A DNA stretch of 64,000 nucleotides. It comes from Bacteroidia bacterium (GTDB lineage Bacteria > Bacteroidota > Bacteroidia > Bacteroidales > UBA932). Below, piece by piece: positions 10,315 through 24,084 of this stretch. The notes beneath the pieces are model-generated. The model had not been told where the DNA came from. It worked only from the letters and a program-made list of their open reading frames with translations, and did not search any database. The position numbers were made by a program, and so were the translations under genes. Positions within the stretch are counted from its first letter, which is position 1; each line of letters begins with the position of its first letter. The stretch is from positions 17,160 through 81,159 of the forward strand of contig JAUMVX010000002.1 in the NCBI GenBank assembly GCA_030529945.1, read 5' to 3'.

Positions 10315-10332
10315 GGATAAGCACTTCGCCGG

Positions 10333-10875
10333 ATGACGGAAGGGCAGGAAATCGTAGGACTGTGTCGCGACGGACGGAGCCGGGAAGCTTTCGAAAGGAT
10401 CGTCCGCACGTACAGCGAGCGTCTTTATCGCCACGTCCGCAGCTTCGGATGCAGCCACGAGGACAGCGATGACCTCCTGCAGGACATATTCATAAAGGTA
10501 TGGAATGCCCTTCCCTCCTACAGGGGCGAGGCGCAGCTTTTTACCTGGCTGTGGAGAATAGCCACTAACGAGACCCTGAACTTCCTGAAAAGCAGGAGGT
10601 TCAGGTTTTTCCTGTCTTCCAGGACCCTGGATGTCCGGGAAGAAAACCGCGCCGATGACGATCCGTGGTTCGACGGGGATGAGGCCCAGAAGCTTCTGAG
10701 CCTCGCGCTGCGCAAACTCCCTCCGAAACAGAGGGCGGTCTTCAGTATGCGCTATTTCCAGGACTTGAGCTACGCGCAGATTTCCGGAATTATGGGCGTG
10801 AGCGTGGGGGCGCTGAAAGCCTCGTATCATCACGCGTATATGAAGATACGCGCGGAACTGGAGAATAATATGTAG
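10333..10875 (+). CDS. ECF-type RNA polymerase sigma factor
   Basis: Region 2 (DLLQDIFIKVW...FTWLWRIATNE) and region 4 (LPPKQRAVFSMRYFQDLSYAQIS...ALKASYHHA). Confidence 0.93.
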   Translation: MTEGQEIVGLCRDGRSREAFERIVRTYSERLYRHVRSFGCSHEDSDDLLQDIFIKVWNALPSYRGEAQLFTWLWRIATNETLNFLKSRRFRFFLSSRTLDVREENRADDDPWFDGDEAQKLLSLALRKLPPKQRAVFSMRYFQDLSYAQISGIMGVSVGALKASYHHAYMKIRAELENNM

Positions 10876-10884
10876 GGGGAGATT

Positions 10885-10909
10885 AAACCTTCCGGGTCGA
10901 AAAATGTCT
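10885..10909 (+). promoter_or_regulatory. Putative ECF-sigma promoter upstream of the anti-sigma-like gene
   Basis: AAAC (10885-88), N17, GTCT (10906-09): typical ECF -35/-10 layout. Confidence 0.45.
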
Positions 10910-10931
10910 ATCTTATCGTAAGTTTCTCATT

Positions 10932-11363
10932 ATGGTCGATAAAAAAAGAGATGTACTGGAAGAGAGCAAGCTGCGTCGGCTTCCTTACAGTGTGCCTCCG
11001 GGATACTTCGAGGGGCTTGAGGCCAGACTGTCCGAGATTCCTTCCGGGCAGCCGGCGGAAAAGTCTTCAGCTCGGGGTTTCTTCCCGAGGGTGGCTCCAT
11101 ACCTTGCCGCCGCGGCCTGCACAGCGGCTCTTCTCGTGGGCGGAATACATTTCGCAAGCCGCTCCGGCTCTGAAGGCGAGGCGTTTTCCGATGAATATCT
11201 CCGTTATTACGCGGCTGACCTTCTCCCCGTGACGCGAACCTACATAAGTCCCGCTGACGAAGAAGCGATGGCGGAACGGGAGCTTGACGAGGATGACATC
11301 AGGGAGTACCTCATCTCCAGCAGGACTTCCACGTCCCTCATAGCCTACGTTCTGGACGAATAG
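10932..11363 (+). CDS. Putative anti-sigma-like single-pass membrane protein
   Basis: N-terminal 'PYSVPPGYFEGLEARL' motif, one TM segment, directly after the ECF sigma. Confidence 0.6.
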   Translation: MVDKKRDVLEESKLRRLPYSVPPGYFEGLEARLSEIPSGQPAEKSSARGFFPRVAPYLAAAACTAALLVGGIHFASRSGSEGEAFSDEYLRYYAADLLPVTRTYISPADEEAMAERELDEDDIREYLISSRTSTSLIAYVLDE

Positions 11364-11399
11364 GGACATCAGACAATAGGATATTCAAATATTGACAAT

Positions 11400-11981
11400 A
11401 TGAAGAAGACAGTTTTACATATCGTGCTGGCGGTTCTGGCCGCTATGCTGGCAGTCCCGACCGCAGCTTATGCTCAGGAGAGGAAAGAGGGGGGCGATGA
11501 TGCCTGGAGGGAACGCATAGAGAGCAAGAAGATAGCTTTCCTCACTTCGGAGATGGATCTCACTCCGGAGGAGGCGCGGGTTTTCTGGCCTGTGTATAAC
11601 AAGGCCCGGGAGCAGATGCGGGAGGCTATGGACAAGGTGATGAAGACATTCGGAGAGATGGACAGGGCCGTAAAGGAAGGAAAGAGCGAGAAGGAGATAT
11701 CGGCTCTGGTACACGCCTACACCGCCGCGCTTGCCGCCACAAAAGGAATGGAGGAAAAGAATGCCAAGGCTTATGAGCAGGTGATATCGCCGGTGAAAGT
11801 GGCCAAGCTTCTTGTGGGAGAGGAGAAGTTCCGGATGCAGCAGATACGCAAGCTGGGTTCTCCCGACGGAAAAAAAGGCGGCAAGGACGCGAAAGAACCG
11901 AAAGACGCACCGGCCGGCAAGCCTTCCTGTGAAGCCCCCGTGTGCGCAGCACCCTGCCTTTTGGGGCATTACATCTATTGA
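11400..11981 (+). CDS. Secreted alpha-helical protein (Spy/CpxP-like), third gene of the ECF trio
   Basis: Signal peptide; KIAFLTSEMDLTPEEARVFWPVYN motif. Confidence 0.65.
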   Translation: MKKTVLHIVLAVLAAMLAVPTAAYAQERKEGGDDAWRERIESKKIAFLTSEMDLTPEEARVFWPVYNKAREQMREAMDKVMKTFGEMDRAVKEGKSEKEISALVHAYTAALAATKGMEEKNAKAYEQVISPVKVAKLLVGEEKFRMQQIRKLGSPDGKKGGKDAKEPKDAPAGKPSCEAPVCAAPCLLGHYIY

Positions 11982-12002
11982 TCACTTCATAAGCCCGGTT
12001 TT

Positions 12003-12656
12003 ATGATCATCGAGGCTAAAGGCATAAGGAAGTCCTTCGGTACCCTTGAGGTCCTGAAAGGACTTGATTTCGGTGTGGACAAGGGCGAGGTGGTGGCCAT
12101 AATGGGTGCTTCCGGAGCCGGCAAGTCCACGCTTCTGCAGATTCTGGGGACGCTTTCCACACCCGATTCCGGGGAGCTGCGCATCGACGGGACGGATGTC
12201 CTGAAGCTGCAGTCCAGGGAACTGTCCGATTTCAGGAACAGAAAACTCGGCTTCGTATTCCAGTTCCATCATCTGCTGCCGGAATTCACGGCCTTGGAGA
12301 ATGTGATGATTCCCGCGTTCATCGCCGGAAAGGGTGTCAGAGAGGCCCGTGCCGAAGCGGAAGAGCTGCTGGGGTCGATGGGGCTGGCCGGCCGCCTTTC
12401 GCATAAGAGTTCGGAGCTTTCCGGAGGGGAGCAGCAGAGAGTCGCGATAGCCCGCGCGCTCATAAACCGCCCGGCGGTGCTGTTCGCGGATGAGCCGTCC
12501 GGCAATCTGGACAGCCGGACCAAGGAGGAAATCCATTCTCTGTTCTTCAAGCTGCGCGATACCCTGGGGCAGACCATAGTCATCGTGACTCACGACGGCG
12601 GCCTCGCCGACCGCTGCGACCGCTGTCTGAATATGCGCGACGGTCAATTCGTGTAA
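12003..12656 (+). CDS. ABC transporter ATP-binding protein, LolD-like
   Basis: [51 protein letters not shown]. Confidence 0.92.
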
Positions 12657-12740
12657 ATCTGTTATTTTTGTAACGTTTTTTTCGGAAATTTCTTGCGGAA
12701 TGAGATTAAATCATTACATTTATACGTTGTTTTTTCAAGT

Positions 12741-14825
12741 ATGAGAAAAATAATTATCATCGCGCTGCTTTTCTTTCTCGCTGCCGGAACGCTGACAGAC
12801 ACTTACGCCGTGCCTGCCCGTCCGGGGGTCGTTACCTTAAGGCAGAAAGACGGCAGCATCATCAGGGCCCGCATTCACGGCGACGAGTTCTGTAACTATG
12901 TCACTACGGAAGAGGGCTACAATATCGTCGGCGGAGCCGACGGCAACTGGTATTTCGCGGAGCTTGACAAGTCAGGCTCCCTCGTTTCTACGGGCATCAA
13001 GGTCGTTCCCGTCTCACGGCTCGCTTCTGCGGAGCGTTCGCGTCTGAATAAAGACTTGCGCCCGAGTATGACGGCGCGTCAGGCTCAGATGAAAGCTTGG
13101 GCGGCATCCTCGGCTCTTTCCGCTCCCTCCTCCGACGAGCGTCCCCCTTTCCTGAGCGGCAGCACTATGGCATCCGCCGGCAAGCAGAAGTCTCTCGTGA
13201 TTCTGGCAGCCTTCAGTGATCTTCCTTTCCGCGAGAGCAGCACCCTCGAGGCTTTCGACGAGATGATGAACGGCCGCAATTATACCCGGAACGGCGCTAC
13301 AGGTAGCGCTTGGCAGTACTATTATGAGAATTCCAATGGGAAGTTCGACCCGGAATTCACCGTCGTGGGTCCTTACACCCTTTCTCACGAGAGGGCCTAT
13401 TATACAGCGAACGATGATGCGAAGGCACACGAGATGGCCATCGAGGCGGCGAGACTTGCGGATGCGGACGTGGATTTCTCACAGTATGCCACAGACGGAT
13501 ATGCATACGACATCTTCGTTTACTATTCCGGCGGAGAGGAGGCTGACGGTTCAGACCCGGACGGCATCTGGCCTCACCGCTCGCATTTCGACACCATCGA
13601 AATCGACGGCGTGAAGCTTTCCGGCTATGCCTGCAGCAGTGAACTCTGCTTTCAGGCCGACGGTTCGGTGGGTTTCACCAAGATAGGCTCCTTCTGCCAC
13701 GAGTTCGGCCACACTCTGGGCTTTCCGGATTTCTACGACACCGGCTCCAGTTCCGGCACCGACACCCCCGCCAACTTTTCCCTGATGGATGTAGGGTGTT
13801 ATAACAACTACTCCGCTACTCCGCCCGCTATGAACATTCTGGAAAGATGGATGCTCGGCTGGGCTGAACCCGAAGTGCTGGAGGCGGAGGGAGATTATGT
13901 CCTGCAGCCGGTCACGGCAGATGCCGGCTATATGGTCCGCAGCGCGAAAAATGGCGATTATTTCCTTCTCGAATGCCGGGGAGCCGGACGCAATGTCTGG
14001 GATGAGGCGAGGTATCTGGACTATTTCGGTCTGGGCGTTTACCGGGGTATGCTCGTGTATCACGTGGACGTATCGAAAAAGTCTTCCTGGAGGAACAATT
14101 CAGTGAATGTCACACGCGGTGGCGAGTGCTTCCATCTCGTCTATTCCAACCCTTCCTACAAGGGATACTATATGCCGGCCTACATCCCGGGCCACAGTTT
14201 CTTCCCGGGTTCCTCAAAAGTAACTGAAATCAGGTACGGCACTTCCGACGGCTATGAGGCCCGTGACGGAGGCAAGCCCGAAGGGGACATAGGCGGAATC
14301 ACTCTGAACGACGACTATACGGTATCCTTCTCATACGCGACCCGCGCTTCCGTCATAAAAGGCATCAAGGCGGATGCCTATCAGCACGATGCCATAATCA
14401 GCTGGAGCGATGACGACGCCACGTCCTGGATGGTTACTTACGCTCCGGTTTCCGGAGGCGAAGCGCTGTCCGTCACCGTGACGGACCGGTTCGCCCATCT
14501 GCCTGCCCTGAAGGCGGGCATCTCCTACGAAGTATCCGTTGTCAGCGACCGGCAGGGCGCTGCGAGTCTTACGCTGACCACCGCCGCCAAGGGTAGCGGG
14601 AATCCGCGCATCACGCTCTCCGCCGGGACGCTCTCCTCTTCCTCCGCCGTACTCTTCACCCTGAGCGACTGCGGCGACTACAGCGACGTGCAGTGGACTG
14701 TGGACGGCGCGAAGTCCGATAACTACAGGACTCTCACCAAGGGCGAGCGGCGCATCCAGGCGTGTGTCACATTCTCTGACGGAAGCAAAGAATACTATCT
14801 CCGATATGTTAATGTAATACTCTGA
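12741..14825 (+). CDS. Secreted M6-family (immune inhibitor A-like) metalloprotease
   Basis: Signal peptide from 12741; AVPARPG...GDEFC propeptide; HEFGHTLGFPD zinc motif; SLMDVGCYN Met-turn. Confidence 0.88.
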   Translation: MRKIIIIALLFFLAAGTLTDTYAVPARPGVVTLRQKDGSIIRARIHGDEFCNYVTTEEGYNIVGGADGNWYFAELDKSGSLVSTGIKVVPVSRLASAERSRLNKDLRPSMTARQAQMKAWAASSALSAPSSDERPPFLSGSTMASAGKQKSLVILAAFSDLPFRESSTLEAFDEMMNGRNYTRNGATGSAWQYYYENSNGKFDPEFTVVGPYTLSHERAYYTANDDAKAHEMAIEAARLADADVDFSQYATDGYAYDIFVYYSGGEEADGSDPDGIWPHRSHFDTIEIDGVKLSGYACSSELCFQADGSVGFTKIGSFCHEFGHTLGFPDFYDTGSSSGTDTPANFSLMDVGCYNNYSATPPAMNILERWMLGWAEPEVLEAEGDYVLQPVTADAGYMVRSAKNGDYFLLECRGAGRNVWDEARYLDYFGLGVYRGMLVYHVDVSKKSSWRNNSVNVTRGGECFHLVYSNPSYKGYYMPAYIPGHSFFPGSSKVTEIRYGTSDGYEARDGGKPEGDIGGITLNDDYTVSFSYATRASVIKGIKADAYQHDAIISWSDDDATSWMVTYAPVSGGEALSVTVTDRFAHLPALKAGISYEVSVVSDRQGAASLTLTTAAKGSGNPRITLSAGTLSSSSAVLFTLSDCGDYSDVQWTVDGAKSDNYRTLTKGERRIQACVTFSDGSKEYYLRYVNVIL

Positions 14826-14827
14826 AG

Positions 14828-15244
14828 ATGAAACATTTACTTTTTTTGCTGACCTTGCTTCTCCTTTCGGTCTCCTGCGTCCGCGACAACACGAAGGAAC
14901 TCCGCGAGAATTTTCAGACGCTTCAGACCTGCGGCATCTGTGACAAAGACGCTATGGTCCTGAGCATAGATATGTCGGAATATCAGTATATGTGCAGCCC
15001 GTCGAAGGGCATATATCGCTTTACGGACGAGACCGGGACGAAGGACCTTACGCTTACACTGACCGGCGCGGTTCTTTCCGAAGGCGTTTCCGTGCAGGGA
15101 GTCATCTCCGGAACTCTGGGGCAGAGCGGGATGAAGTTCAAAGACCTGTACATACTGAAAAAGAGTTCGTCTCAGGTATGGCTGTGGTCGGATGCCGACA
15201 AGCGCGGTGTCATCCTTCCGGCTTGGGGAACAGTGAACAGATGA
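14828..15244 (+). CDS. Small lipoprotein of unknown function
   Basis: Lipobox LSVSC; starts 2 nt after the protease stop. Confidence 0.75.
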   Translation: MKHLLFLLTLLLLSVSCVRDNTKELRENFQTLQTCGICDKDAMVLSIDMSEYQYMCSPSKGIYRFTDETGTKDLTLTLTGAVLSEGVSVQGVISGTLGQSGMKFKDLYILKKSSSQVWLWSDADKRGVILPAWGTVNR

Positions 15245-15275
15245 TAACACCAAATAATTAATTTCATTAAAACTT

Positions 15276-18200
15276 ATGAGACAAAAACTGTTTTTGATTC
15301 CGTTTCTGATGCTCGCGCTTGTCCTGCAGGCGGGTGCGCAGAACGTGAGTGTGAATGGTACTGTCCTCGATGAGAACAATGATCCCGTCATCGGCGCGGG
15401 TGTGCTCGTGAAAGGCACGTCCGACGTCGGAGTCGTCACCGACATCGACGGACGTTTCTCTCTGAACGGACTGCGCTCCTCCGACATTCTCGTGGTTTCC
15501 TGCGTGGGAATGATAACCCAGGAGGTGGCTGTGAAGCCTGAACTTACCGTCATACTACGAACCGATCAGGAAATGCTCGACGATGTCATCGTGGTGGCTT
15601 TCGGTCAGCAGACCAAGGCGTCATTCACCGGCTCGGCGGCTGTCGTAAAGAAAGAAGAACTTGAGAAGAAACAGCTGACCAACGTGCTCAGCGGCCTCCA
15701 GGGCCAGGTGGCAGGTCTTCAGATGGTGAACAATTCCGGTTCGCCTACCGCCACGCCTTCGATGGCCATCCGCGGATTCAGCTCCATAAACGCCGGCACG
15801 TCGCCGCTCATCATCGTGGACGGCGCGCCTTACGACGGGGGCTGGAACAACCTCAACCCTAACGATGTCGAGAACATCACCGTCCTCAAGGACGCGGCCT
15901 CGAACGCCCTCTACGGCGCGCGCGGCGCGAACGGCGTGATTATGATCACCACGAAGAACGGCAAGAGCGAGAACGCGACCGTCACCTTCGACAGCAAGTG
16001 GAGTATGAACAGCCGCGCGACCATCGACTACGACTACGTGAAAGACCCGGCGCAGTACTACGAGATGCACTACGCGATGCTCTACAACTACTACGTCCGC
16101 GACCGCGGAATGTCCGCCTACGAGGCGCACTCCGCGGCCAATGTCAACCTCGGCGGAGCCACTGCTGACGGCGGTCTGGGCTACATCGCCTATACGGTCC
16201 CGGACGGCGAGTACCTTATCGGAACGAACGGCAAGCTGAATCCTCACGCATCCGTCGGGAACCGCCTCTATTACAAGGGGAAATACTATACCGTTATGCC
16301 TGATAACTGGATAGACGAAGCTTTCAGGCACAGCCTCAGGCAGGAATACAACCTGAGCCTCACCGGCGGCACCGACAAGCTCAGATTCTTCGGATCGCTC
16401 GGCTATCTGAATAACGAAGGTATCGTTTACAACTCGGATTTCGAGCGCAACACCATACGTCTCAAGACCGACTATCAGGCCAAGCCGTGGATGAAGCTCG
16501 GCGCGAATATGAACTACGCCCACAGCATTTCACACGATGTGGGGGACGGTTCGGGAACCTCCATCTTCGGCATCGCCAACACGATGGCCCCTATCTATCC
16601 TGTCTATGTCCGCGACGGGGACGGAAAGATAATGTACGACGAGAACGGCAAGATGTATGACTACGGCTCCGGTGAAATCGCCGGACTGAACCGTCCGGTT
16701 CTCTCGCGCAACAACCCTCTTCAGGAGAACTCCCTGAATACTGACAAGACCATAAACAATTCGATGAGCATCACCGGGTATACCGACATCACTCCTCTCG
16801 AAGGCCTGAAGCTTACGCTGAACGGCACCCTCACCAATGGCGAGTCCCATTACACCGCCACCCAGCAGGGCTTCTACGGCTACGGGGCCACGGCTTATCC
16901 GGACGGCTATGTCTATAAATACAACAGCCACATATATTCGCTCAACTTCCAGCAGATTCTGACCTACACCAGACAGATAGGCCGTCACAACATTTCCGTT
17001 ATGGCGGGTCACGAGAATTATGACTACAAGAGCGAATGGATGAGCGCCGACCGCGAGGGGCTCTTCTCCTATTTCGACGCGCAGGAACTCAGCGCCGCCA
17101 TCAAGATAAAAGAGAATGCCGGCTCTTCCAGCCGCTACAATACCGAAGGGTGGTTCTCCCGCGCGATGTACAATATGGATGAGAAATACTTCCTTTCCGC
17201 CTCCTATCGCCGCGACGCTTCCTCGCGTTTCCACCCCGACCACCGCTGGGGCAACTTCTACTCAGTCGGAGGCGCCTGGATTCTCAGCAAGGAAAGCTGG
17301 TACCGCAGTTCCTGGCTGGATATGCTCAAGCTCAAGATATCCTGGGGCCAGCAGGGCAACGACTCCATCGGAGACTACCGTTATACCGACACCTATTCCA
17401 TCCTCTATTATGACGGGAAGCCTTCACTCTCCCTGAGCAGCATAGGCAACCCGGAGATTACCTGGGAGACTAACAGCAACTTCAACGCGGGAGCCGAGTT
17501 CGAACTGCTGGGCGGTCGCATCACCGGTAGCGCCGAATACTTCAACAGAGTCACCACCGATATGCTCTGCTTCGTATATGTGCCTCTCTCGGGCGGTTAC
17601 GGCGGCTCTTACGACAACGTCGGAAATATGCTGAACCGGGGTCTGGAGCTTGACCTGACATTCTCACTTGTCCGCAGACGCGACTTCAATTGGAATCTCA
17701 GCCTGAACGCCACCAGTTTCAAGAACAGAATCACTATGCTGCACGAGGACAACAAGAGCGCCGAGCTCGACGGTCACTACGGCTACATAAACGGATCTTA
17801 CTTCTACGGCGAGGGACTGCCGCTGCATACCTTCTACATCAAGCGTTACGCCGGCGTGAACGAGCAGGGTCAGTCGCAGTGGTATGTGAAGCAGGACGGC
17901 ACGGACGAGCTTGCCAAGACTTCCGACTACACCAAGGGATCCTACTTCAACTGCGGAGACGCCGATCCGGACATCTACGGCGGCATCGGCACTTCCCTTA
18001 CCTGGAAGGGCTTCGACTTCTCCGTGAACTTCAACTACAGCATCGGCGGCAAGGCCATCGACTACGGCTATGCGTCCCTGATGGCGAATCCTAATGTGCA
18101 GAATACCGGAAGCAGTTTCCATAAGGACCTGCTCAAGGCCTGGTCGGAAACGAACCGCGATTCAGACATCCCGCGTTTCCAGTTCGCCATTCAGCCTGTC

Positions 18201-18470
18201 GACGATTATGCCAGCTCCACTTCGGACCGCTTCCTCACCGATGCCTCCACGCTCACCCTGCAGAATATAAATCTGGGCTACACCCTGCCTTCAGGTCTGA
18301 CCCAGCGCGTCGGACTGAGCAAGGTGCGCGTCTATGCTGCGGGCGAGAATCTCTACTATTGGAGCAAGCGCAAGGGCTTCGACCCTCGCGGAAGCTTCTG
18401 GGGAACCACCACTACCTCCACCTATGCTCCTGTCCGTATGATTACGGGCGGCGTAACTTTAACCTTCTAA
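15276..18470 (+). CDS. SusC/RagA-family TonB-dependent transporter
   Basis: Plug motifs DVIVVAFG and DVENITVLKDAASNALYGARGANGVIMITTK; C-terminal GGVTLTF. Confidence 0.97.
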   Translation: MRQKLFLIPFLMLALVLQAGAQNVSVNGTVLDENNDPVIGAGVLVKGTSDVGVVTDIDGRFSLNGLRSSDILVVSCVGMITQEVAVKPELTVILRTDQEMLDDVIVVAFGQQTKASFTGSAAVVKKEELEKKQLTNVLSGLQGQVAGLQMVNNSGSPTATPSMAIRGFSSINAGTSPLIIVDGAPYDGGWNNLNPNDVENITVLKDAASNALYGARGANGVIMITTKNGKSENATVTFDSKWSMNSRATIDYDYVKDPAQYYEMHYAMLYNYYVRDRGMSAYEAHSAANVNLGGATADGGLGYIAYTVPDGEYLIGTNGKLNPHASVGNRLYYKGKYYTVMPDNWIDEAFRHSLRQEYNLSLTGGTDKLRFFGSLGYLNNEGIVYNSDFERNTIRLKTDYQAKPWMKLGANMNYAHSISHDVGDGSGTSIFGIANTMAPIYPVYVRDGDGKIMYDENGKMYDYGSGEIAGLNRPVLSRNNPLQENSLNTDKTINNSMSITGYTDITPLEGLKLTLNGTLTNGESHYTATQQGFYGYGATAYPDGYVYKYNSHIYSLNFQQILTYTRQIGRHNISVMAGHENYDYKSEWMSADREGLFSYFDAQELSAAIKIKENAGSSSRYNTEGWFSRAMYNMDEKYFLSASYRRDASSRFHPDHRWGNFYSVGGAWILSKESWYRSSWLDMLKLKISWGQQGNDSIGDYRYTDTYSILYYDGKPSLSLSSIGNPEITWETNSNFNAGAEFELLGGRITGSAEYFNRVTTDMLCFVYVPLSGGYGGSYDNVGNMLNRGLELDLTFSLVRRRDFNWNLSLNATSFKNRITMLHEDNKSAELDGHYGYINGSYFYGEGLPLHTFYIKRYAGVNEQGQSQWYVKQDGTDELAKTSDYTKGSYFNCGDADPDIYGGIGTSLTWKGFDFSVNFNYSIGGKAIDYGYASLMANPNVQNTGSSFHKDLLKAWSETNRDSDIPRFQFAIQPVDDYASSTSDRFLTDASTLTLQNINLGYTLPSGLTQRVGLSKVRVYAAGENLYYWSKRKGFDPRGSFWGTTTTSTYAPVRMITGGVTLTF

Positions 18471-18476
18471 GGAGAA

Positions 18477-20201
18477 ATGATTATGAAAAGATTAATAGTT
18501 AATATCGCTGCGGCGGCCCTGCTACTCGGCTGTACCTGCGCCTGCATAGAAGAGACTTTCCCTACCACTGTGGCTACTCCGGAGAAAATCGAGAAATCCT
18601 CTTCCTCGCTGGAGTATATGCTGAACGGGCTTTCGTCTTTCCTTATGGATTACGACACCTGGGGGACCTCCGCGAACTACAACGACTGGGGCTACCCTTG
18701 CCAGATGTATATGCGTGAGGTGATGGGCGAGGACTTCCCGGTGTATGACGCTCTCTACGACTACTGGAGCTACATCGAGTCGGGGAGCAGCCTGCGTTAT
18801 GCCGCCTACTATACCTGGTTCTATTATTACTCTTTCATCAGGAACGCGAACAACGTAATCGCCCTCGTACCGGATCCCGACAGCGTTCCTGAAAAGTCGG
18901 CTCAGAGTCTCGGACAGGCATCCGCTTACCGTGCGCTTATGTATATGGACCTTTCCGCCCTCTATGAGTATCGCACCACGGAGGTGGAAAGCCTCAACTC
19001 CGAGGCGCAGGCCAGCAAGATAATGGGCCTCACGGTTCCTATTGTGGACGAGAACACCAGCAAGGTGGATCTCCAGAACAATCCCCGCGTGCCGTTCTAC
19101 ACGATGTACCGTTTCGTTATGACCGACCTGAACCGTGCGGAGAAGTATCTTCACGGCTATGAGCAGAAGACCACCGCAAATGTGGACCTCGGCGTGGTTT
19201 ACGGTCTGAAGGCACGTCTCTGGCTGGATATGGCGAGCCGTTTCGACAAGGACGCCTCGGCTCTCGCGCTGCAGAGAAGCGCGGAAGGCACGGACGACTA
19301 TGACGACCTGGGAGTCAGCACTGCTATGGAATGTTACGCCAAGGCCGCCGAATATGCTGAAAAGGCCATAGCCTGCGGATACACCCCTCTCACGGAGGAC
19401 CAGTGGATGGACACCAAGACCGGTTTCAACACGGCCCAGCCGTCCTGGATGCTCGGCACCTACGTGACATCGAAGGAAGAGGTGAACACCTCCTACTATT
19501 ACTGCTCGTTCGTGGCCCAGATGACCTCCGAGCCGACCTGGTCTATGGGAAGATACGGCAAGGCTTTCCGCTGCATCGGCAAGTCCCTCTATGACAAGAT
19601 CTCCGATTATGACTGGCGCAAGACCAGCTGGATCGCTCCGGAGGATGCGGGCAAGACTCCGATTCCGTCGAAATACCGCACGGACCTCGACAGCGAGTCC
19701 TGGGCGGAGCTTCCGGCCTACGCGAACCTCAAGTTCCGAGCGGGCAGCGGTTCCCTGAACACCATCGAGACGGGCCTCATCGCCTCGCTTCCTCTTATGA
19801 GAGTGGAGGAGATGTATTTCATCTATTTCGAGGCCATCGCCCACACCCGCAGCGTAGCCGCAGCTGCGGCCGCGATGACGGACTTCATAAACGCCTACCG
19901 CTACAAGGGCGGCACATACAGCTGCACCGCAAGCGATATGAGTTCATTCATCACCGAGCTTATGGTCCAGAGGCGCATAGAGTTCTGGGGAGAGGGCATC
20001 AATTTCTTCGCCTACAAGCGTCTCGCCCTGCCTGTCACAAGGTCTTACACGGACACCAACTGGATTTCCGCCCACAGGCTGAATACCAAGGCCGGCTACG
20101 TCGCTCCTTGGATGAACTATGTTCTGCCGGAGTACGAAAGAGACAATAATCAGGCTGTCATTCTGAATCCGGACCCGTCAGGTGCCATCATTTCACAATA
20201 A
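18477..20201 (+). CDS. SusD/RagB-family lipoprotein (start may be 18483)
   Basis: Signal II with Cys; AYRALMYMDL, MRVEEMYFIYFEA, RRIEFWGEG, NYVLPEYERDNN. Confidence 0.92.
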   Translation: MIMKRLIVNIAAAALLLGCTCACIEETFPTTVATPEKIEKSSSSLEYMLNGLSSFLMDYDTWGTSANYNDWGYPCQMYMREVMGEDFPVYDALYDYWSYIESGSSLRYAAYYTWFYYYSFIRNANNVIALVPDPDSVPEKSAQSLGQASAYRALMYMDLSALYEYRTTEVESLNSEAQASKIMGLTVPIVDENTSKVDLQNNPRVPFYTMYRFVMTDLNRAEKYLHGYEQKTTANVDLGVVYGLKARLWLDMASRFDKDASALALQRSAEGTDDYDDLGVSTAMECYAKAAEYAEKAIACGYTPLTEDQWMDTKTGFNTAQPSWMLGTYVTSKEEVNTSYYYCSFVAQMTSEPTWSMGRYGKAFRCIGKSLYDKISDYDWRKTSWIAPEDAGKTPIPSKYRTDLDSESWAELPAYANLKFRAGSGSLNTIETGLIASLPLMRVEEMYFIYFEAIAHTRSVAAAAAAMTDFINAYRYKGGTYSCTASDMSSFITELMVQRRIEFWGEGINFFAYKRLALPVTRSYTDTNWISAHRLNTKAGYVAPWMNYVLPEYERDNNQAVILNPDPSGAIISQ

Positions 20202-20216
20202 AAAGATTATAAGGCT

Positions 20217-21143
20217 ATGAATCATAATATGAAGACATATCTTTATGCGTCGCTCGCCCTTCTGGGCCTGACTCTCTCCTCCTGTAAAGGGAGCGAGGGC
20301 TATGAGCCGGGCCCGGAGCCGGCCTCTGACAGCATCGAGGCTTATTTCCTTTCCTCGAATCCTGCAGAATACATTCTCGGCACCGATGCCACGAGCATCA
20401 CCCTCGAAGTCGGCAGAATGAAATCTGACTTTGCAGCCAGCGTTCCCGTAACGGTGGAATTCCAGGATGCCTCATTCGAGATTCCCGCCACCGTGGAATT
20501 CGCGGCCGGAGAAGCCACGGCGGAGTTTACGGTAAACTTCCGCGATATGCCTACCAAGGTGGAACAGCAGTTCATCGTCCGCATTGCAGGTGACAACGCG
20601 AATCCTTATGCTATTCACGACGGCTCGGAACTGTACTCCGGGAAGGTTCTCGTCTCCGAGTGGAAGAAAGTGGTCAGCGGCGCTCTTTTCTGGTTCTCTA
20701 CCATACTGCAGGCGCAGGTCACCTCGGACATCTACTGGCTCGACGGCTTCAACCGTTTCCGCATCGAGAACTTCCTCGGCACGGGATTCGACCTCAGCTA
20801 CAGCATAAACAACTCCGAGTTCGATCCGGAGGACATCAGCACCTGGACGGGAGAATTCAGCCCTCTCGACCACTATGCCGAGGAGGCCACGGATGACGAC
20901 TACAAATACTGGAGTCTGCGGGACGCTTCCGGAAACTATTTCGAGTGGACTCCGGACGGTGCACCGGATGCCGTTACAGGTCTCTTCGTGTACCGCACGG
21001 ACTATTATTCCGCCATAACTATGGACGGATCCACGTCCCCGGACGCCTACTTCACGACATATATGAATACCGCCAGCGGCAAATACGACGGCTGGGAGTA
21101 CATCTATGCCTACTGGACAGAAGCGGACGTAATCAAGCCATAA
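20217..21143 (+). CDS. Sus-locus lipoprotein (Ig-like N-terminal domain plus aromatic-rich C-terminal domain)
   Basis: Lipobox LSSC; follows susD. Confidence 0.75.
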   Translation: MNHNMKTYLYASLALLGLTLSSCKGSEGYEPGPEPASDSIEAYFLSSNPAEYILGTDATSITLEVGRMKSDFAASVPVTVEFQDASFEIPATVEFAAGEATAEFTVNFRDMPTKVEQQFIVRIAGDNANPYAIHDGSELYSGKVLVSEWKKVVSGALFWFSTILQAQVTSDIYWLDGFNRFRIENFLGTGFDLSYSINNSEFDPEDISTWTGEFSPLDHYAEEATDDDYKYWSLRDASGNYFEWTPDGAPDAVTGLFVYRTDYYSAITMDGSTSPDAYFTTYMNTASGKYDGWEYIYAYWTEADVIKP

Positions 21144-21157
21144 AAGTCTAACATTAT

Positions 21158-22588
21158 ATGCATAAACAGAATATGAACACAATATTGACCTTTATCCGCA
21201 GGATGGCGGGACTGATTGTCCTCGCTGCGCTGGGAACTGCAGTTCTGTCTTCCTGCAAGGAGGATGATCCGGTCCCTACGCCTCTGGATGCTCCTCAGGC
21301 AAGACTTGTCGCGGCCACGGTCAGTTCACTGACGTTCACGTGGGATAAGGTAACAGATGCTGTCCAGTACGGCTATCAGCTTGTCGGCCCGGACGGTTCG
21401 GATTTGGACGGCGGCACTACAACCGCTACAAGTGCCGTATTCACCGGTCTTAAGGACAATACGACATATATGGTCAGAATTTACGCTTTTGCCGCTGTCG
21501 CGGAGCCTTCTCTCGGGACCTCAGCCGCTTTCGAGGTTCAGGGGAAGACGGAAGCCATAGTACCGCTCGCCACTCCGGTACTCAAGGTTGAGGCCGGAGA
21601 GGGTACGGCCGCCATCAGCTGGGAGGCGGTGGACAATGCCGACTCGTATGCCTACAGTTATGTGGTGGATGGTGGTACGCCTGTTACAGGTTCGACGGAG
21701 GACACTTCATTGACTCTCCTGAAACTTGAGGCCGGCAACTATGTTTTCTATCTCCGGGCGGTAAGCGAAAATGAAGCCTACAGTGATTCTGAAGAGGCGA
21801 TGGCCGAATTCGAGGTCAAGTCGGCCGCGAGAAGGGAAAGCTGGAGAGTGACGGGAAGCGTGGATGATGGCGGCGGAAACACTTGGGCAGCGACGATGGT
21901 AGCCTGGAGCGACGGAACCTACACTCTCAAGGACTGGTACAATGTCGAGGGCTATGACTTGGAGTTCTACCTGAACGCAGACGGTTCCCTCTCCGTCACC
22001 AACTATTACGAGCCTTATTATCCGAACATCTGGGTAATCGCCGGCGATGATATTGACAACGGCTGGGTTCATCTTTATACCGCGACATACGGCTCCAGTT
22101 ATTATTCTTACTTCGACGGCGACAGGACAGAGGGCTATTTCTATTGTTACAGTTACAGGACGGCCGGCTATTATCAGTTCACTTGGGCTTCATCTGGAGA
22201 CTCCGTGACTGTCGATGACATCGTGGGGACTTATTCCCAGAACAATACTTACCAGTTCTGGTATAACAGTGCCTGGAACAATTATTCTTCCACGAACGAT
22301 GTCACCGTCACCAAGGTGGACGATACGACTGTCAGCATCGAAGGCTTTATGTACGCTCTTTCAGACGGAGGCAAGGCAATCAATGCCGTTCTGGATGCCG
22401 GAAGAGGCACTCTCTCCATATCGCCTCAGAATGTGGACGAGTGGTACAAGCTGGCTGGGCAGGAAGCAGAAACCGACTCCGTGACCGTCATCTGGGAAAA
22501 CGGGGTGCTCACTTTCGGCGACTGGTCTCTGTGGTATGACGGTTATCAATATGCCTACAGTACGGAGACCGTGCTGACCAAGAAATAA
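21158..22588 (+). CDS. Surface lipoprotein with two FN3-like repeats and aromatic-rich C-terminal domains (start may be 21173)
   Basis: LSSC-KEDD; LTFTW...Y...FTGLKDNTTY; AAISWEAVDNADSYAY. Confidence 0.78.
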   Translation: MHKQNMNTILTFIRRMAGLIVLAALGTAVLSSCKEDDPVPTPLDAPQARLVAATVSSLTFTWDKVTDAVQYGYQLVGPDGSDLDGGTTTATSAVFTGLKDNTTYMVRIYAFAAVAEPSLGTSAAFEVQGKTEAIVPLATPVLKVEAGEGTAAISWEAVDNADSYAYSYVVDGGTPVTGSTEDTSLTLLKLEAGNYVFYLRAVSENEAYSDSEEAMAEFEVKSAARRESWRVTGSVDDGGGNTWAATMVAWSDGTYTLKDWYNVEGYDLEFYLNADGSLSVTNYYEPYYPNIWVIAGDDIDNGWVHLYTATYGSSYYSYFDGDRTEGYFYCYSYRTAGYYQFTWASSGDSVTVDDIVGTYSQNNTYQFWYNSAWNNYSSTNDVTVTKVDDTTVSIEGFMYALSDGGKAINAVLDAGRGTLSISPQNVDEWYKLAGQEAETDSVTVIWENGVLTFGDWSLWYDGYQYAYSTETVLTKK

Positions 22589-22631
22589 AAATGTCTCGTA
22601 CAGATAATACAACACATTAAAACCTGCAAAT

Positions 22632-24020
22632 ATGAAAAGAATCTTTACAATTGCCCTCAGGGCGGCCACGGTGCTCGCCCTCGCAGTGCTCGGCTCCGCC
22701 GTTCTTTCTTCCTGCAAGCCTGAGAAGAAAGACCCTGTACAGCTGACCGCCCCGCAGCCGAAGCTCTCGGCCGCCACGGTCAACACCCTCTCTTTCACCT
22801 GGACCCAGGTCGCCAATGCGGCGCAGTACACCTATGAACTCCTCTCTCCGGACGGATCCAAGGCCGACGGGGGGACTACTGCCGAAACCAAGGCCGAGTT
22901 CAAGGGTCTGAAAGACAATACCGCCTATACATTCAAGGTAGTGGCTTATCCCGCTTCGGGCAGCGAAGATTATCTGGCTTCGGTTGCGGGACAGTGCATC
23001 GGAACTACTGTCGCGGTGACACCTCTCGCCAAACCGGTCCCCAAGGTGGAGGTCGGTGACGAGTCTGTGACGGTCTCCTGGGATGCAGTGGCGAACGCTG
23101 CCTCTTATGACTACGCTTATGCCGCAGAGGGCGGCTCCGCAGTCACCGGCAATACTGCGGAGACATCCCTTACCCTCAAGCTTGATCCGGGGAAATACAC
23201 TTTCACGCTTCAGGCCATAAGCTCCGATGCCGCCTACAGCGCTTCCGAGAAGGCAAGTGCTGAATTCGAAGTGAAACGTCTGGCGGAATGGAAAGTCCAG
23301 GGGACTTTCGAGGACGGCGGAGGTAAAATCTGGATAGACGAGATGGTCGCCTGGAGTGACGGCAGCTATACCATCAGGAACTGGTACGGAATCGAAGGCT
23401 ACGACTTCGAGTTCGTGCTCAACGAAGACGGAACCATCGGAATCACGAACAGCACCTCCGAAGATCCGGACTATCCGAAGGTCGAGTCGGGAGATGGTTC
23501 AATCTCCTTGTATACCGGCATCTATAATGGTTATCCATACTCCGGTTTCGAAGGAGACAAGGAGGAGGGAATCTTATGGTTCTCAAGCTATACTACAAAC
23601 GGTGACTGCGTGTTCACCTGGCCGGTTCGCACCGTCACTATGGATGAAGTCGTCGGAACGTATGCTCAGGACAATTCATATTATTTCTATGATTATGACT
23701 ATTCGGACTGGATCCTCTACAAGTCTGAGAATGACGTCACCATCACTAAGATCGATGATAAGACTGTAAGCATAGAAGGCTTTATGTATCCGGCGGACTA
23801 TGGCGGAAAGCCGCTCACAGCCACTCTTGATTCAGAAAAGGGTGCCTTGATAATACAGCCTCAGCAATTGACGGAGTGGTACACGCTGGCGGGCGACACC
23901 GATAAATCCGGTGTAATCGCGAAATGGAATGGGGGGACTCTCACATTCTCAAGCTGGTGTCTGTGGTATAATGGTTATTATTATGCGTATGACTATTACA
24001 CCGCCCTCACGAAGAAATAA
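22632..24020 (+). CDS. Surface lipoprotein, tandem paralog of 21158-22588
   Basis: LSSC; FKGLKDNTAY; VSWDAVANAASYDY; AWSDGSYTIRNWYGIEGYDFEF; ends LTKK like its paralog. Confidence 0.78.
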   Translation: MKRIFTIALRAATVLALAVLGSAVLSSCKPEKKDPVQLTAPQPKLSAATVNTLSFTWTQVANAAQYTYELLSPDGSKADGGTTAETKAEFKGLKDNTAYTFKVVAYPASGSEDYLASVAGQCIGTTVAVTPLAKPVPKVEVGDESVTVSWDAVANAASYDYAYAAEGGSAVTGNTAETSLTLKLDPGKYTFTLQAISSDAAYSASEKASAEFEVKRLAEWKVQGTFEDGGGKIWIDEMVAWSDGSYTIRNWYGIEGYDFEFVLNEDGTIGITNSTSEDPDYPKVESGDGSISLYTGIYNGYPYSGFEGDKEEGILWFSSYTTNGDCVFTWPVRTVTMDEVVGTYAQDNSYYFYDYDYSDWILYKSENDVTITKIDDKTVSIEGFMYPADYGGKPLTATLDSEKGALIIQPQQLTEWYTLAGDTDKSGVIAKWNGGTLTFSSWCLWYNGYYYAYDYYTALTKK

Positions 24021-24049: not shown

Positions 24050-24084
24050 AAGGATGACTCCGGACTCCGGGGTCATCCTTTTTT
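24050..24084. terminator. Intrinsic terminator between the convergent sus locus and rfbA
   Basis: AAGGATGACTCCGG-act-CCGGGGTCATCCTT followed by TTTT. Confidence 0.8.

What the first reader, a model, noticed from the sequence alone, without database searches (positions are those of the whole stretch)
12741..24020. CAZyme-free SusCD locus headed by a protease: candidate protein/peptide utilisation or adhesion system
Seen: seven same-strand genes (M6 protease, lipoprotein, SusC, SusD, three lipoproteins) with gaps of 2-43 nt and one terminator at the end. No glycoside hydrolase, sulfatase or sensor-regulator is present. Known: RagAB-type SusCD pairs import peptides. Inference: a surface system that binds a protein substrate, cleaves it and imports peptides.
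Basis: partly seen in the sequence, partly recalled or inferred. Interest (0 to 1): 0.62.

Follow-up and report, generated by a model that had tools for sequence, protein, structure and literature searches.

The report
Protease-headed SusCD uptake operon, two modules
An uncultured gut Bacteroidales bacterium carries a real seven-gene outer-membrane uptake operon with no sugar-cutting enzyme, built from a protease plus small partner lipoprotein joined to a transporter with three surface lipoproteins; it most likely harvests protein, an idea already published for similar loci.

Summary
Window 12741-24020 carries seven same-strand genes with 2-43 nt gaps, closed by one hairpin terminator. They are an M6 metalloprotease, a 138-aa lipoprotein (lp138), SusC, SusD, a 308-aa lipoprotein (lp308) and two paralogous FN3 lipoproteins. 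No CAZyme or dedicated regulator is present.

For protein or peptide uptake:
- This SusC and its three closest paralogues in the same genome, all next to S8 subtilases, form a 100/99 clade among 18 SusC proteins.
- Relatives in other genera sit next to M6 or C10 peptidases.
- RagA is the best solved match, though only narrowly.

- The protease has a plain signal peptide in every orthologue. It has no lipid anchor and no T9SS tail, so a surface location is unproven.
- SusD shows no likeness to RagB.
- The locus is two modules. M6+lp138 also occurs alone, and SusCD+lp308+FN3 occurs without a protease in another genus. The two modules have reassorted within this genus.
- In one distant locus, M6+partner pairs sit inside a GH13/GH53 PUL.

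A published precedent exists: ButCD of Bacteroides fragilis, a zinc protease followed by SusCD. The newest element is the M6-partner lipoprotein family. It has 738 clusters, no Pfam model and no structural match in the PDB.

The parts
12714..12723 (+). Conserved AT-rich box TTACATTTAT, 18-27 nt upstream of the M6 ATG. Candidate Bacteroidota -7 promoter element (consensus TAnnTTTG; here TAcaTTTA).
   Evidence: Read. The box TTAnATTTAT is kept in orthologues L001-L004 and L011, although L003, L004 and L011 have different upstream sequence. This is a motif match only. No transcript data were available.
12741..14825 (+). M6 (immune inhibitor A family) zinc metalloprotease, 694 aa. It has a Sec/SPI signal (cleavage predicted after TYA), an N-terminal conserved domain, a catalytic domain with HEFGHTLGFPD, then an FN3-like domain and a small C-terminal beta domain.
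   Evidence: TIGR03296 at 3.6e-45 (155 bits) and PF05547 at 8e-12. The only PDB match is InhA 4yu5. The zinc motif is kept in all orthologues. No lipobox and no Por_Secre_tail were found.
14828..15244 (+). lp138, a small lipoprotein and the conserved partner of Bacteroidales M6 proteases. All-beta fold, motif VWLWSDxDKxGxILP.
   Evidence: Lipobox LSVSC. AF2 gave pLDDT 87 with ten strands and one helix. No PDB fold match was found (best E 0.07), and there is no Pfam or NCBIfam hit. Homologues sit directly next to M6 genes in 12 further loci and in a paralogous pair of this genome. The family has 738 representatives. Identity to orthologues tracks M6 with r = 0.98.
15276..18470 (+). SusC/RagA-family TonB-dependent transporter, 1064 aa. 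It has an N-terminal CarboxypepD_reg-like domain and a plug, and no STN signalling domain.
   Evidence: TIGR04056 at 770 bits, TIGR04057 signature, PF07715. Best PDB matches are RagA 6sli at 372 bits, 8aa4 at 347 and BT1763 at 290. It forms a clade with three S8-linked paralogues, support 100/99.
18477..20201 (+). SusD-like lid lipoprotein, 574 aa. Mature N-terminus CIEETFP.
   Evidence: PF14322 at 32.9 bits, above the cut-off. PF07980 at 22.3 bits, just below it. The profile search against the PDB found 3snx, 3lew and 3kez (structural-genomics SusD-like proteins), ButD at 52 bits and no RagB.
20217..21143 (+). lp308, the lipoprotein that follows SusD. Its N-terminal ~150-residue domain is shared with the large lipoproteins that follow SusD in the S8-linked loci. 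Its C-terminal half is rich in aromatic residues and unique to this locus type.
   Evidence: No Pfam or PDB sequence match. hhalign to the 706-aa and 805-aa post-SusD lipoproteins gave 94.6% and 96.7%. BLASTP to the 304-aa one gave 2e-5. It is rare: 3 of 401 genomes of the order.
21158..22588 (+). fn476, a surface-type lipoprotein (CKEDDP) with two FN3 domains and two all-beta, Tyr/Trp-rich C-terminal domains of unknown family.
   Evidence: PF00041. AF2 gave pLDDT 84. Foldseek hits cover only the FN3 part. No Pfam model covers residues ~225-476 in any of 34 family members. All homologues are named 'hypothetical'.
22632..24020 (+). fn462, a paralogue of fn476 (51% identity).
   Evidence: BLASTP 4e-151. 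Copy number varies from 1 to 3, and FN3 domain number also varies, among orthologous loci.
24050..24084 (.). Hairpin (AAGGATGAC...CCGG act CCGG...GTCATCCTT) plus T-run between the convergent fn462 and rmlA genes. Likely a bidirectional intrinsic terminator.
   Evidence: Read directly.

Best explanation
The locus is an accessory outer-membrane operon for acquiring protein or peptides, assembled from two modules.

Module 1 is an active M6 zinc endoprotease and its obligate small lipoprotein partner, lp138. Module 2 is a SusC barrel with its SusD lid and three further lipoproteins: lp308 and two FN3-stalk proteins with aromatic-rich tips.

Proposed sequence of events:
1. The stalk lipoproteins, lp308 and SusD capture a proteinaceous ligand at the cell surface (inferred).
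2. The M6 protease, held at the outer membrane by lp138, cuts it. My preferred role for lp138 is a lipid tether acting in trans (~45%). The alternative is a potempin-like guard or inhibitor (~30%). All of this is inferred.
3. SusCD imports oligopeptides by the TonB-driven pedal-bin mechanism established for RagAB and BT1762/63.
4. Other peptidases of the cell finish the breakdown.

Which side of the outer membrane M6 works on is open. If it stays in the periplasm, as Sec-only PUL enzymes do, it cuts polypeptides after import rather than before.

Shown here: the gene content, the conserved order, the intact catalytic motif, the M6-lp138 pairing, the protease-linked SusC clade, and the modularity. 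Inferred: the substrate class, the location of M6 and the role of each lipoprotein.
For: 1. No CAZyme in the unit or in any of about 13 orthologous loci. The only enzyme is a protease with HExxHxxGxxD intact everywhere.
2. In this genome the three closest SusC paralogues (46, 42.5 and 34% identity) all head loci whose enzymes are S8 subtilases, one of them with an M3 oligopeptidase as well. The four form a 100/99 clade among 18 SusC proteins. The next paralogues serve GH10, GH16 and GDPD loci.
3. Homologues of this SusC in other genera (35-42% identity) lie next to M6+partner (L021, L117) or C10 peptidases (L019, L124). No GH was recognised next to any of them.
4. All these loci share a post-SusD lipoprotein with the lp308-type N-terminal domain.
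5. RagA is the top solved match for this SusC and for the S8-linked paralogue. A xylan-PUL SusC from the same genome prefers glycan transporters, at 592 against 250 bits.
6. M6 and lp138 evolve as one unit (r = 0.98). They are separated by -16 to +29 nt in 25 loci (-4 to +29 nt in the orthologues, -16 to +13 nt in the distant pairs), with start and stop often overlapping.
7. Partnered M6 proteins never carry a C-terminal sorting or tether domain (0 of 13). Partner-less relatives often do (6 of 9: weak T9SS tails or dockerins). Fisher p = 0.001, or 0.055 counting only above-threshold domains.
8. The paralogous M6+partner pair on contig C35 is followed by an aminopeptidase C homologue.
9. Published precedent: the B. 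fragilis ButCD locus (zinc protease, SusC, SusD; no CAZyme) imports a small protein, and its authors propose protein uptake (PMC11467351).
Against: - No transcript, binding or uptake data exist.
- M6 has only a Sec/SPI signal, so surface proteolysis is unproven. No known route takes such a protein across the Bacteroidota outer membrane.
- The SusD lid does not resemble RagB. RagA leads a glycan SusC by only 25 bits.
- The SusCD-lp308-FN3 core exists without any protease in another genus (L080). Several clade members are enzyme-free pairs.
- Module reassortment argues against tight co-adaptation of protease and transporter.
- In L030 and L031, M6+partner pairs sit inside a locus with GH13/CBM26 and GH53, so M6 can accompany glycan systems.
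- The Tyr/Trp-rich tips of the lipoproteins would also suit sugar binding.
Unrecognised CAZymes could have been missed.
Confidence: 0.55

Rival explanations
1. Glycoprotein or glycan system. SusCD imports a glycan or glycopeptide, and the aromatic-rich lipoprotein tips are sugar-binding modules. M6 only strips the protein part of a glycoprotein, such as mucin, plant arabinogalactan-protein or extensin. The glycosidases are encoded elsewhere.
For: - Tyr/Trp-rich C-terminal domains in lp308, fn476 and fn462.
- M6+partner pairs lie inside a GH13/CBM26-GH53 locus in L030 and L031.
- In the human-gut orthologue L069 the operon abuts a divergent GH127/rhamnosidase-like PUL.
- The best SusD matches are deposited as 'carbohydrate binding' proteins, though without ligand data.
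Against: - No GH, PL, CE or sulfatase lies in this operon or in any orthologue.
- The SusC clade is tied to S8, C10 and M6 peptidases, while the glycan SusCs of the same genome lie elsewhere in the tree.
- The flanks differ between orthologues, so neighbouring PULs are not conserved partners.
Confidence: 0.2
2. Two unrelated functions share one promoter. M6+lp138 is an InhA-like defence or competition module that cleaves host antimicrobial peptides, immunoglobulins or rival proteins. It happened to insert ahead of an enzyme-free SusCD system that imports some non-protein ligand, such as a cofactor, a metal chelate or another small molecule.
For: - M6+partner pairs occur alone next to housekeeping genes (L013, L017, L025, L026, L029, L032 and contig C35).
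- The SusCD-lp308-FN3 core occurs without M6 (L080).
- The two modules reassort freely: all four combinations of the two M6 types and two SusCD types exist.
- M6 family members are known to degrade antimicrobial peptides. This was noted for secreted M6 peptidases of gut Muribaculaceae in PMC4936053.
Against: - The fusion is kept in at least 13 species-level loci, with 24-88 nt between lp138 and SusC and across different flanks.
- M6+partner joined SusCD loci independently in at least two other arrangements (L021/L117 and L030).
- The sister SusC loci carry other proteases in the enzyme position.
Confidence: 0.15
3. Protein-import gate exploited in bacterial antagonism. As with ButCD, the physiologically important cargo may be a small folded protein, such as a bacteriocin-like or signalling protein, rather than bulk dietary protein. 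The fast-evolving surface lipoproteins would then reflect an arms race.
For: - ButCD imports an 8.6-kDa-class ubiquitin homologue and is headed by a zinc protease (PMC11467351).
- M6 and the FN3 proteins diverge much faster than SusCD between near relatives: 78% and 70% against 96% and 94% in L002.
- FN3 copy number varies from 1 to 3.
Against: - This SusC is not a ButC orthologue: 191 bits to 8ypu against 372 to RagA.
- No toxin or immunity gene lies nearby.
- Import of toxins through nutrient transporters is normally parasitic on a nutritional function, so this reading does not replace the best explanation.
Confidence: 0.1

Closest known systems
ButCD locus of Bacteroides fragilis and relatives (ZnMc-butC-butD; PDB 8YPT/8YPU; PMC11467351)
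   Same: A CAZyme-free SusCD pair with a zinc metalloprotease gene immediately upstream on the same strand. The authors propose native uptake of protein substrates. The same paper counts four of 59 susCD loci in one B. fragilis strain as peptidase-containing.
   Different: - Not orthologous: ButC scores 191 bits against 372 for RagA, and ButD scores 52 bits against the SusD profile.
- As described, ButCD has no partner lipoprotein between protease and SusC and no trailing lipoproteins.
- The family of the ButCD protease was not compared here.
- ButCD is highly conserved in Bacteroides. This locus is a rare accessory unit.
RagAB oligopeptide importer of Porphyromonas gingivalis (PDB 6SLI and others; bioRxiv 10.1101/755678)
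   Same: A SusC/SusD-type pair that imports protease-generated oligopeptides. RagA is the best solved sequence match of this SusC and of its S8-linked paralogue.
   Different: - RagB is not detectably similar to this SusD.
- The margin of RagA over a glycan SusC is small.
- By general knowledge of that system, the rag locus encodes no protease and no extra lipoproteins, and its peptides come from T9SS-secreted gingipains.
Subtilase-linked, CAZyme-free SusCD loci: three in this genome; reported by earlier notes of this scan as the counterpart of B. thetaiotaomicron BT0206-14
   Same: Sister clade of SusC (100/99 support). Same layout of SusC, SusD and a post-SusD lipoprotein with the shared N-terminal domain, followed by a protease. 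One also has a small lipoprotein after the protease.
   Different: - The protease there is S8. It is anchored by its own lipobox or carries a T9SS tail, and it lies at the end of the locus. Here it is an unanchored M6 at the head, with a partner lipoprotein.
- The FN3-tip lipoproteins are specific to this locus type.
- The BT0206-14 equivalence is an unchecked lead that I did not test.
Potempin / KLIKK-peptidase pairs of Tannerella forsythia (PMC9890683)
   Same: A small (98-132 aa) beta-rich outer-membrane lipoprotein encoded right next to, and co-transcribed with, a secreted peptidase in a Bacteroidales bacterium. The two form a 1:1 complex.
   Different: - Potempin genes lie upstream of the peptidase. 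lp138 lies downstream.
- KLIKK peptidases are not M6.
- The confident lp138 model found no potempin or other inhibitor fold in the PDB (best E 0.07).
- Inhibition is untested. The complementary distribution with cis tether domains favours a tethering role instead.
Immune inhibitor A (InhA, MEROPS M6) of the Bacillus cereus group (PDB 4YU5)
   Same: Same peptidase family and zinc motif HExxHxxGxxD, with a multidomain secreted architecture.
   Different: Only about 120 residues align, at E 3e-7. The Bacteroidales proteins have their own conserved N-terminal domain (xPxxPG...QPDGS...GDEF), different C-terminal domains and a dedicated lipoprotein partner.

Membership tests
SusC/RagA-family TonB-dependent transporter | Match to TIGR04056 above its cut-off, with plug domain and SusC signature | tested here: met
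   TIGR04056 at 770 bits (cut-off 368), TIGR04057 at 60 bits (cut-off 46), PF07715 Plug at 73 bits.
SusD/RagB-family lid lipoprotein | SusD-like domain, lipobox, gene directly after susC | tested here: met
   PF14322 at 32.9 bits (cut-off 27). PF07980 at 22.3 bits, just under 23.1. The mature N-terminus CIEETFP is conserved, and the gap to SusC is 6 nt. The profile matches SusD-like PDB entries at 1e-34.
Polysaccharide utilisation locus (PUL) in the strict sense | SusCD pair together with at least one carbohydrate-active enzyme | tested here: not met
   No GH, PL, CE or sulfatase domain in any of the seven proteins or in orthologous loci.
Polysaccharide utilisation locus (PUL) in the strict sense | Dedicated sensor-regulator (HTCS, SusR, or ECF/anti-sigma with an STN domain on SusC) | tested here: not met
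   None in the unit. SusC has no STN domain. The upstream ECF sigma gene is three genes away and is not kept in orthologues with other flanks.
RagAB-type peptide importer | Barrel specifically related to RagA rather than to glycan SusCs | tested here: inconclusive
   RagA ranks first, but at 372 against 347 bits for 8aa4. A xylan SusC control gives 250 for RagA against 592 for 8aa4. No tree including RagA could be built.
RagAB-type peptide importer | Lid related to RagB | tested here: not met
   No RagB chain among 26 PDB matches at E <= 10 with a profile of 11 SusD sequences, nor with the single sequence.
RagAB-type peptide importer | Bound or transported oligopeptides | not testable with these tools
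   Needs purified complex or uptake assays.
ButCD-type locus | Zinc metalloprotease gene directly upstream of a CAZyme-free susCD pair | tested here: met
   Gene order here, compared with the description in PMC11467351. This is a likeness of layout only.
ButCD-type locus | Orthology of the barrel and lid to ButC and ButD | tested here: not met
   8ypu/8ypt barrel at 191 bits, ranked 7th-8th. ButD at 52 bits, ranked 6th.
[quoted passage not shown] | M6 catalytic domain with HExxHxxGxxD | tested here: met
   TIGR03296 at 155 bits (cut-off 110.8), PF05547 at 45 bits (cut-off 22). HEFGHTLGFPD at residues 320-330, conserved in all orthologues.
T9SS cargo | C-terminal sorting domain (TIGR04183 / PF18962) | tested here: not met
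   No hit in M6 at E <= 0.01. The whole-genome scan finds the domain in an S8 protease on contig C47 but not here.
Potempin-like peptidase inhibitor | Small OM lipoprotein co-transcribed with the peptidase | tested here: met
   Lipobox present. The gap to M6 is 2 nt here, and the pairing is seen in 25 loci. The order is reversed relative to potempins.
Potempin-like peptidase inhibitor | Potempin fold (OB-fold or eight-stranded barrel) or sequence homology | tested here: not met
   Foldseek of the pLDDT-87 model against the PDB gave best E 0.07 and TM <= 0.32, with no potempin entry. The profile search against PDB sequences found nothing below E 0.4.
Potempin-like peptidase inhibitor | Inhibition of the linked peptidase | not testable with these tools
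   Needs enzyme assays.

The most novel reading that the evidence does not exclude
The lp138 family (at least 738 sequence clusters, no Pfam model, no PDB fold match) is a new kind of protease partner in Bacteroidales. It would be a small lipoprotein that supplies in trans the membrane tether, and perhaps the route to the cell surface, for Sec-secreted M6 proteases that lack both a lipid anchor and a T9SS tail. M6+lp138 would then be a portable 'plug-in' proteolytic cassette that recombines with different SusCD importers.
Probability: 0.3. Interest if true: 0.7.

Novelty: new variant of a known kind. Interest (0 to 1): 0.5.

Why it matters
Gut and rumen Bacteroidales are studied almost entirely as sugar degraders. 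How they take up protein nitrogen is poorly understood beyond RagAB of one oral pathogen.

This small (2.3 Mb) genome holds four related SusCD loci whose only enzymes are proteases. That suggests protein harvesting through SusCD machines is a major and diversified trait in this uncultured lineage.

The locus offers a compact set of testable parts: a protease, its partner, a barrel, a lid and three binders. It also shows that the proteolytic and transport modules are exchanged by recombination.

The M6-partner family is an unannotated, widespread protein family. Defining its role as tether or guard would add a rule for how Bacteroidota place or control secreted proteases.

Tried and rejected
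- The sigma-70 consensus scan gave no more sites than shuffles (10 found against 8.1 expected), and it does not model Bacteroidota promoters. It was disregarded.
- A TAnnTTTG match at -78 in the window is not kept even in the 93%-identical orthologue. Rejected as a promoter.
- lp138 as a known inhibitor or lipocalin: profile against PDB sequences and Foldseek were both negative.
- lp138 related to the 138-aa lipoprotein after the S8 gene on contig C38: hhalign 2.5%, rejected.
- lp308 related to the FN3 proteins: BLASTP and hhalign negative.
- Identifying the C-terminal domains of fn476: Foldseek hits were swamped by the FN3 domains. Pfam on 34 members gave only Ig/FN3-type matches. The model could not be cut for a separate search.
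- M6 C-terminal 84 residues as a T9SS tail or a domain repeated in the genome: no family hit, and no other copy by tblastn.
- ECF sigma, two unknown genes and an ABC ATPase upstream as part of the system: they are syntenic only in close relatives. Rejected.
- The apparent GH16 neighbours of a related SusC (L116) match only a BACON-like N-terminal stretch, not the catalytic domain. Not counted as CAZymes.
- Literature searches for M6-SusCD or 'peptide utilisation loci' found no description of this locus type.

Full report
**1. Observation**

The seven ORFs exist as described. All lie on the + strand at 12741-24020, with gaps of 2, 31, 6, 15, 14 and 43 nt.

- M6 protease: Pfam and NCBIfam assign it to family M6 (TIGR03296 at 155 bits against a cut-off of 110.8; PF05547). 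The motif HEFGHTLGFPD is intact.
- SusC: a SusC/RagA transporter (TIGR04056 at 770 bits) with CarboxypepD_reg and Plug domains and no STN domain.
- SusD: a weak but above-threshold SusD-like protein (PF14322).
- fn476 and fn462: two FN3-containing lipoproteins, 51% identical to each other.
- lp138 and lp308: no family hit.

Lipoboxes can be read in lp138, SusD, lp308, fn476 and fn462. The protease is not a lipoprotein.

A strong hairpin followed by a T-run at 24050-24084 lies between fn462 and the convergent rmlA gene. Flanking genes are housekeeping:
- Upstream: LepA, transketolase, an ECF sigma factor, two unknown genes and an ABC ATPase.
- Downstream: rmlA, a U32 peptidase-family gene and a polyprenyl synthase.

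No CAZyme or regulator belongs to the unit.

**2. Conservation and distribution**

A scan of one genome per species found the same order (M6, small lipoprotein, SusC, SusD, lp308-like, one to three FN3 lipoproteins) in 12 loci, with M6 identity from 93% down to 48%. Several of these have unrelated flanks.

A human-gut (Hadza) metagenome contig carries the unit with one FN3 gene, next to an unrelated divergent PUL.

According to earlier notes of this scan, the organism belongs to the uncultured genus Candidatus Cryptobacteroides (not verified by me). Several record titles of the related contigs carry obviously wrong taxon names.

The unit is accessory:
- Clear lp308 orthologues occur in about 3 of the 24 other same-genus genomes sampled.
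- They occur in 3 of 401 genomes across the order, counting this genome.

**3. Two modules**

*(a) M6 plus lp138*

- A profile of lp138 finds a homologous small lipoprotein directly beside the M6 gene in 12 further Bacteroidales loci that have distant M6 proteins (28-40% identity). Across the 25 pairs the gap is -16 to +29 nt (-16 to +13 nt in these distant ones). In one locus the partner gene lies upstream.
- The same pairing occurs in a second pair of this genome on contig C35 (hhalign 96%). There the next gene is an aminopeptidase C homologue.
- No such partner is seen beside M6 genes of other phyla.
- The family has 738 representatives at 50% clustering, almost all of 130-148 aa. It has no Pfam or NCBIfam model.
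- A confident AlphaFold model (pLDDT 87; ten strands and one helix) has no structural match in the PDB (best E 0.07).
- M6 and lp138 identities to the window track each other across orthologues (r = 0.98).

*(b) SusC, SusD, lp308 and the FN3 lipoprotein*

In another genus (L080) this four-gene core is present at 45%, 42%, 29% and 35% identity, with a housekeeping gene instead of M6 and lp138 upstream.

*(c) Reassortment*

- The M6 tree splits {L069, L008, L010} from the rest.
- The SusC and SusD trees split {window, L002, L003, L069} from the rest. Each split has 100/100 support.
- All four combinations of the two M6 types and two SusCD types therefore exist.

The modules have been exchanged by recombination while the architecture was kept.

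**4. What the transporter clade is linked to**

Within this 2.3-Mb genome, the three SusC proteins most similar to this one all belong to loci with the following layouts:

| Contig | SusC identity | Locus layout |
|---|---|---|
| C15 | 46% | SusC, SusD, large lipoprotein, S8 subtilase lipoprotein, M3 oligopeptidase |
| C38 | 42.5% | SusC, SusD, large lipoprotein, S8 subtilase lipoprotein, small lipoprotein |
| C47 | 34% | SusC, SusD, lp308-like lipoprotein, S8 subtilase with a T9SS tail |

- The four SusC proteins form a clade with 100/99 support among the genome's 18 SusC-like proteins.
- The next-closest paralogues (27-30%) serve a GH10 xylan locus with an HTCS regulator, a GH16/BACON locus and a phosphodiesterase locus.
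- The N-terminal ~150 residues of lp308 are homologous to the N-termini of the lipoproteins that follow SusD in all three S8 loci.

Across 150 genomes of the order, SusC homologues at 35-50% identity were found in 20 genera. I fetched 20 neighbourhoods and screened them with BLAST seeds:
- Two carry M6+partner directly after SusCD and the lipoprotein (L117; also L021 from the first scan).
- Two carry C10 cysteine peptidases (L124, L019; Pfam).
- Several are enzyme-free pairs.
- None showed a recognisable GH.

There is one real counter-example for the protease. In L030 and L031, two M6+partner pairs lie between a SusCD pair (26% identity, outside the clade) and GH13/CBM26 and GH53 genes.

**5. 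Comparison with solved transporters**

| Query | RagA (6sli) | 8aa4 | BT1763 | ButC (8ypu) |
|---|---|---|---|---|
| This SusC | 372 bits | 347 | 290 | 191 |
| S8-linked paralogue on C15 | 321 | 313 | 295 | 175 |
| Xylan-PUL SusC, control | 250 | 592 | 398 | 206 |

The clade leans towards RagA, but not decisively.

A profile of 11 SusD sequences finds structural-genomics SusD-like proteins, and ButD at 52 bits. It finds no RagB even at E <= 10. I therefore do not file the system as RagAB.

**6. Where is the protease?**

- Every M6 orthologue, and every distant Bacteroidales homologue examined, has a Sec/SPI signal followed by a conserved mature N-terminus (xPxxPG...QPDGS...GDEF) with no cysteine.
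- Neither Pfam nor NCBIfam finds a T9SS tail in the window protein or in any of 12 other partnered M6 proteins. The genome does have T9SS cargo.
- Of nine partner-less Bacteroidales M6 proteins, three end in dockerin domains. Three more have sub-threshold T9SS-tail matches at the exact C-terminus.
- The contrast of 0 of 13 against 6 of 9 gives Fisher p = 0.001, or 0.055 if only above-threshold domains count. The loci are not phylogenetically independent, so this is suggestive only.

This pattern fits lp138 supplying in trans what a tail or dockerin supplies in cis, namely retention at the cell envelope.

The alternative is a potempin-like guard. It is supported by analogy with small OM lipoproteins co-transcribed with peptidases in Tannerella (PMC9890683) and by the small lipoprotein after one S8 gene here. 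It has no fold support.

By the usual PUL rule (Sec-only means periplasmic), M6 might act after import rather than before. This cannot be decided in silico.

**7. Literature**

The idea of a CAZyme-free SusCD locus headed by a metalloprotease that imports protein is published for ButCD of Bacteroides (PMC11467351). That paper also notes four peptidase-containing susCD loci in one B. fragilis strain.

RagAB is the experimentally established peptide importer (10.1101/755678).

Secreted M6 peptidases were noted in 20 of 30 Muribaculaceae genomes and discussed as immune-related (PMC4936053).

I found no description of the M6-partner lipoprotein pairing or of this locus type.

**8. Verdict**

My best reading, at 0.55, is a protein or peptide acquisition operon made of a portable M6+partner cassette and a SusCD-lipoprotein importer from a protease-associated SusC clade.

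What is new here:
- the partner-lipoprotein family;
- the demonstrated modular reassortment;
- the finding that a small genome devotes four related SusCD loci to proteases.

Novelty class: new variant of a known kind. Interest: 0.5.

Noticed in passing
own genome, contig C35:12867-17003 (locus L072): A second M6 protease (776 aa) is followed, with a 4-nt overlap, by a homologous 135-aa lipoprotein and then by an aminopeptidase C (Peptidase_C1_2) gene that has a signal peptide. No SusCD lies nearby.
   Followed up: partly
own genome, contigs C15:59235-71907, C38:42-9422, C47:42-9025 (loci L073-L075): Three further CAZyme-free SusCD loci whose enzymes are S8 subtilases: two are lipoproteins and one has both a lipobox and a T9SS tail. 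The C15 locus also has an M3 oligopeptidase. The 706-aa and 805-aa post-SusD lipoproteins have no Pfam domain.
   Followed up: partly
L030:4137-19507 and L031 (rumen Bacteroidales MAGs): Two tandem M6 genes, each followed by a ~346-aa lipoprotein that contains the lp138-type domain, sit inside a SusCD locus that ends with GH13/CBM26 and GH53 genes. This is a protease cassette inside a glycan PUL.
   Followed up: partly
L015, L019, L021, L117: A conserved block of large M6 (~1030-1070 aa, with Big_2 and CarboxypepD_reg domains), partner lipoprotein and S13 D-Ala-D-Ala carboxypeptidase. In L021 and L117 it lies directly after a SusCD pair plus lipoprotein. In L019 it lies after a SusCD pair, a C10 peptidase and an OmpA-like gene.
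   Followed up: partly
window 12700-12740 and orthologues: The sequence just upstream of the M6 start contains an imperfect inverted repeat around the AT box (AACGTTAcATTTATaCGTT in the L001-type loci; AATGTTAATTTGTAACATT in L005). It is kept across different flanks and could be an operator as well as a promoter element.
   Followed up: no
L001, L003, L004, L012 record titles: Contigs that clearly belong to Bacteroidales (SusCD operons 70-99% identical to this window) are deposited under names such as Bulleidia, Kurthia senegalensis, Faecalibacillus and Anaerotignum. These are mislabelled MAG bins.
   Followed up: no
window 12741-24020 compared with L002: Evolutionary rates are uneven within the operon between close relatives. 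SusC, SusD and lp308 are 96%, 94% and 93% identical, while M6 is 78%, lp138 80%, fn476 70% and fn462 55%. Flanking genes are 70-93% identical. The cause could be recombination or diversifying selection on the protease and stalk lipoproteins.
   Followed up: partly
window 10333-12656: An ECF sigma factor gene is followed by two unannotated ORFs (143 and 193 aa) and a 217-aa ABC ATPase, all co-directional and ending 84 nt before the M6 gene. Their function and any link to one another are unknown.
   Followed up: no
L116 (same family, other genus), 9860-13693: Two ~627-aa proteins after a related SusCD pair and lp308-like gene share only a BACON-like N-terminal stretch with a GH16 protein. Their catalytic nature is unknown.
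   Followed up: no
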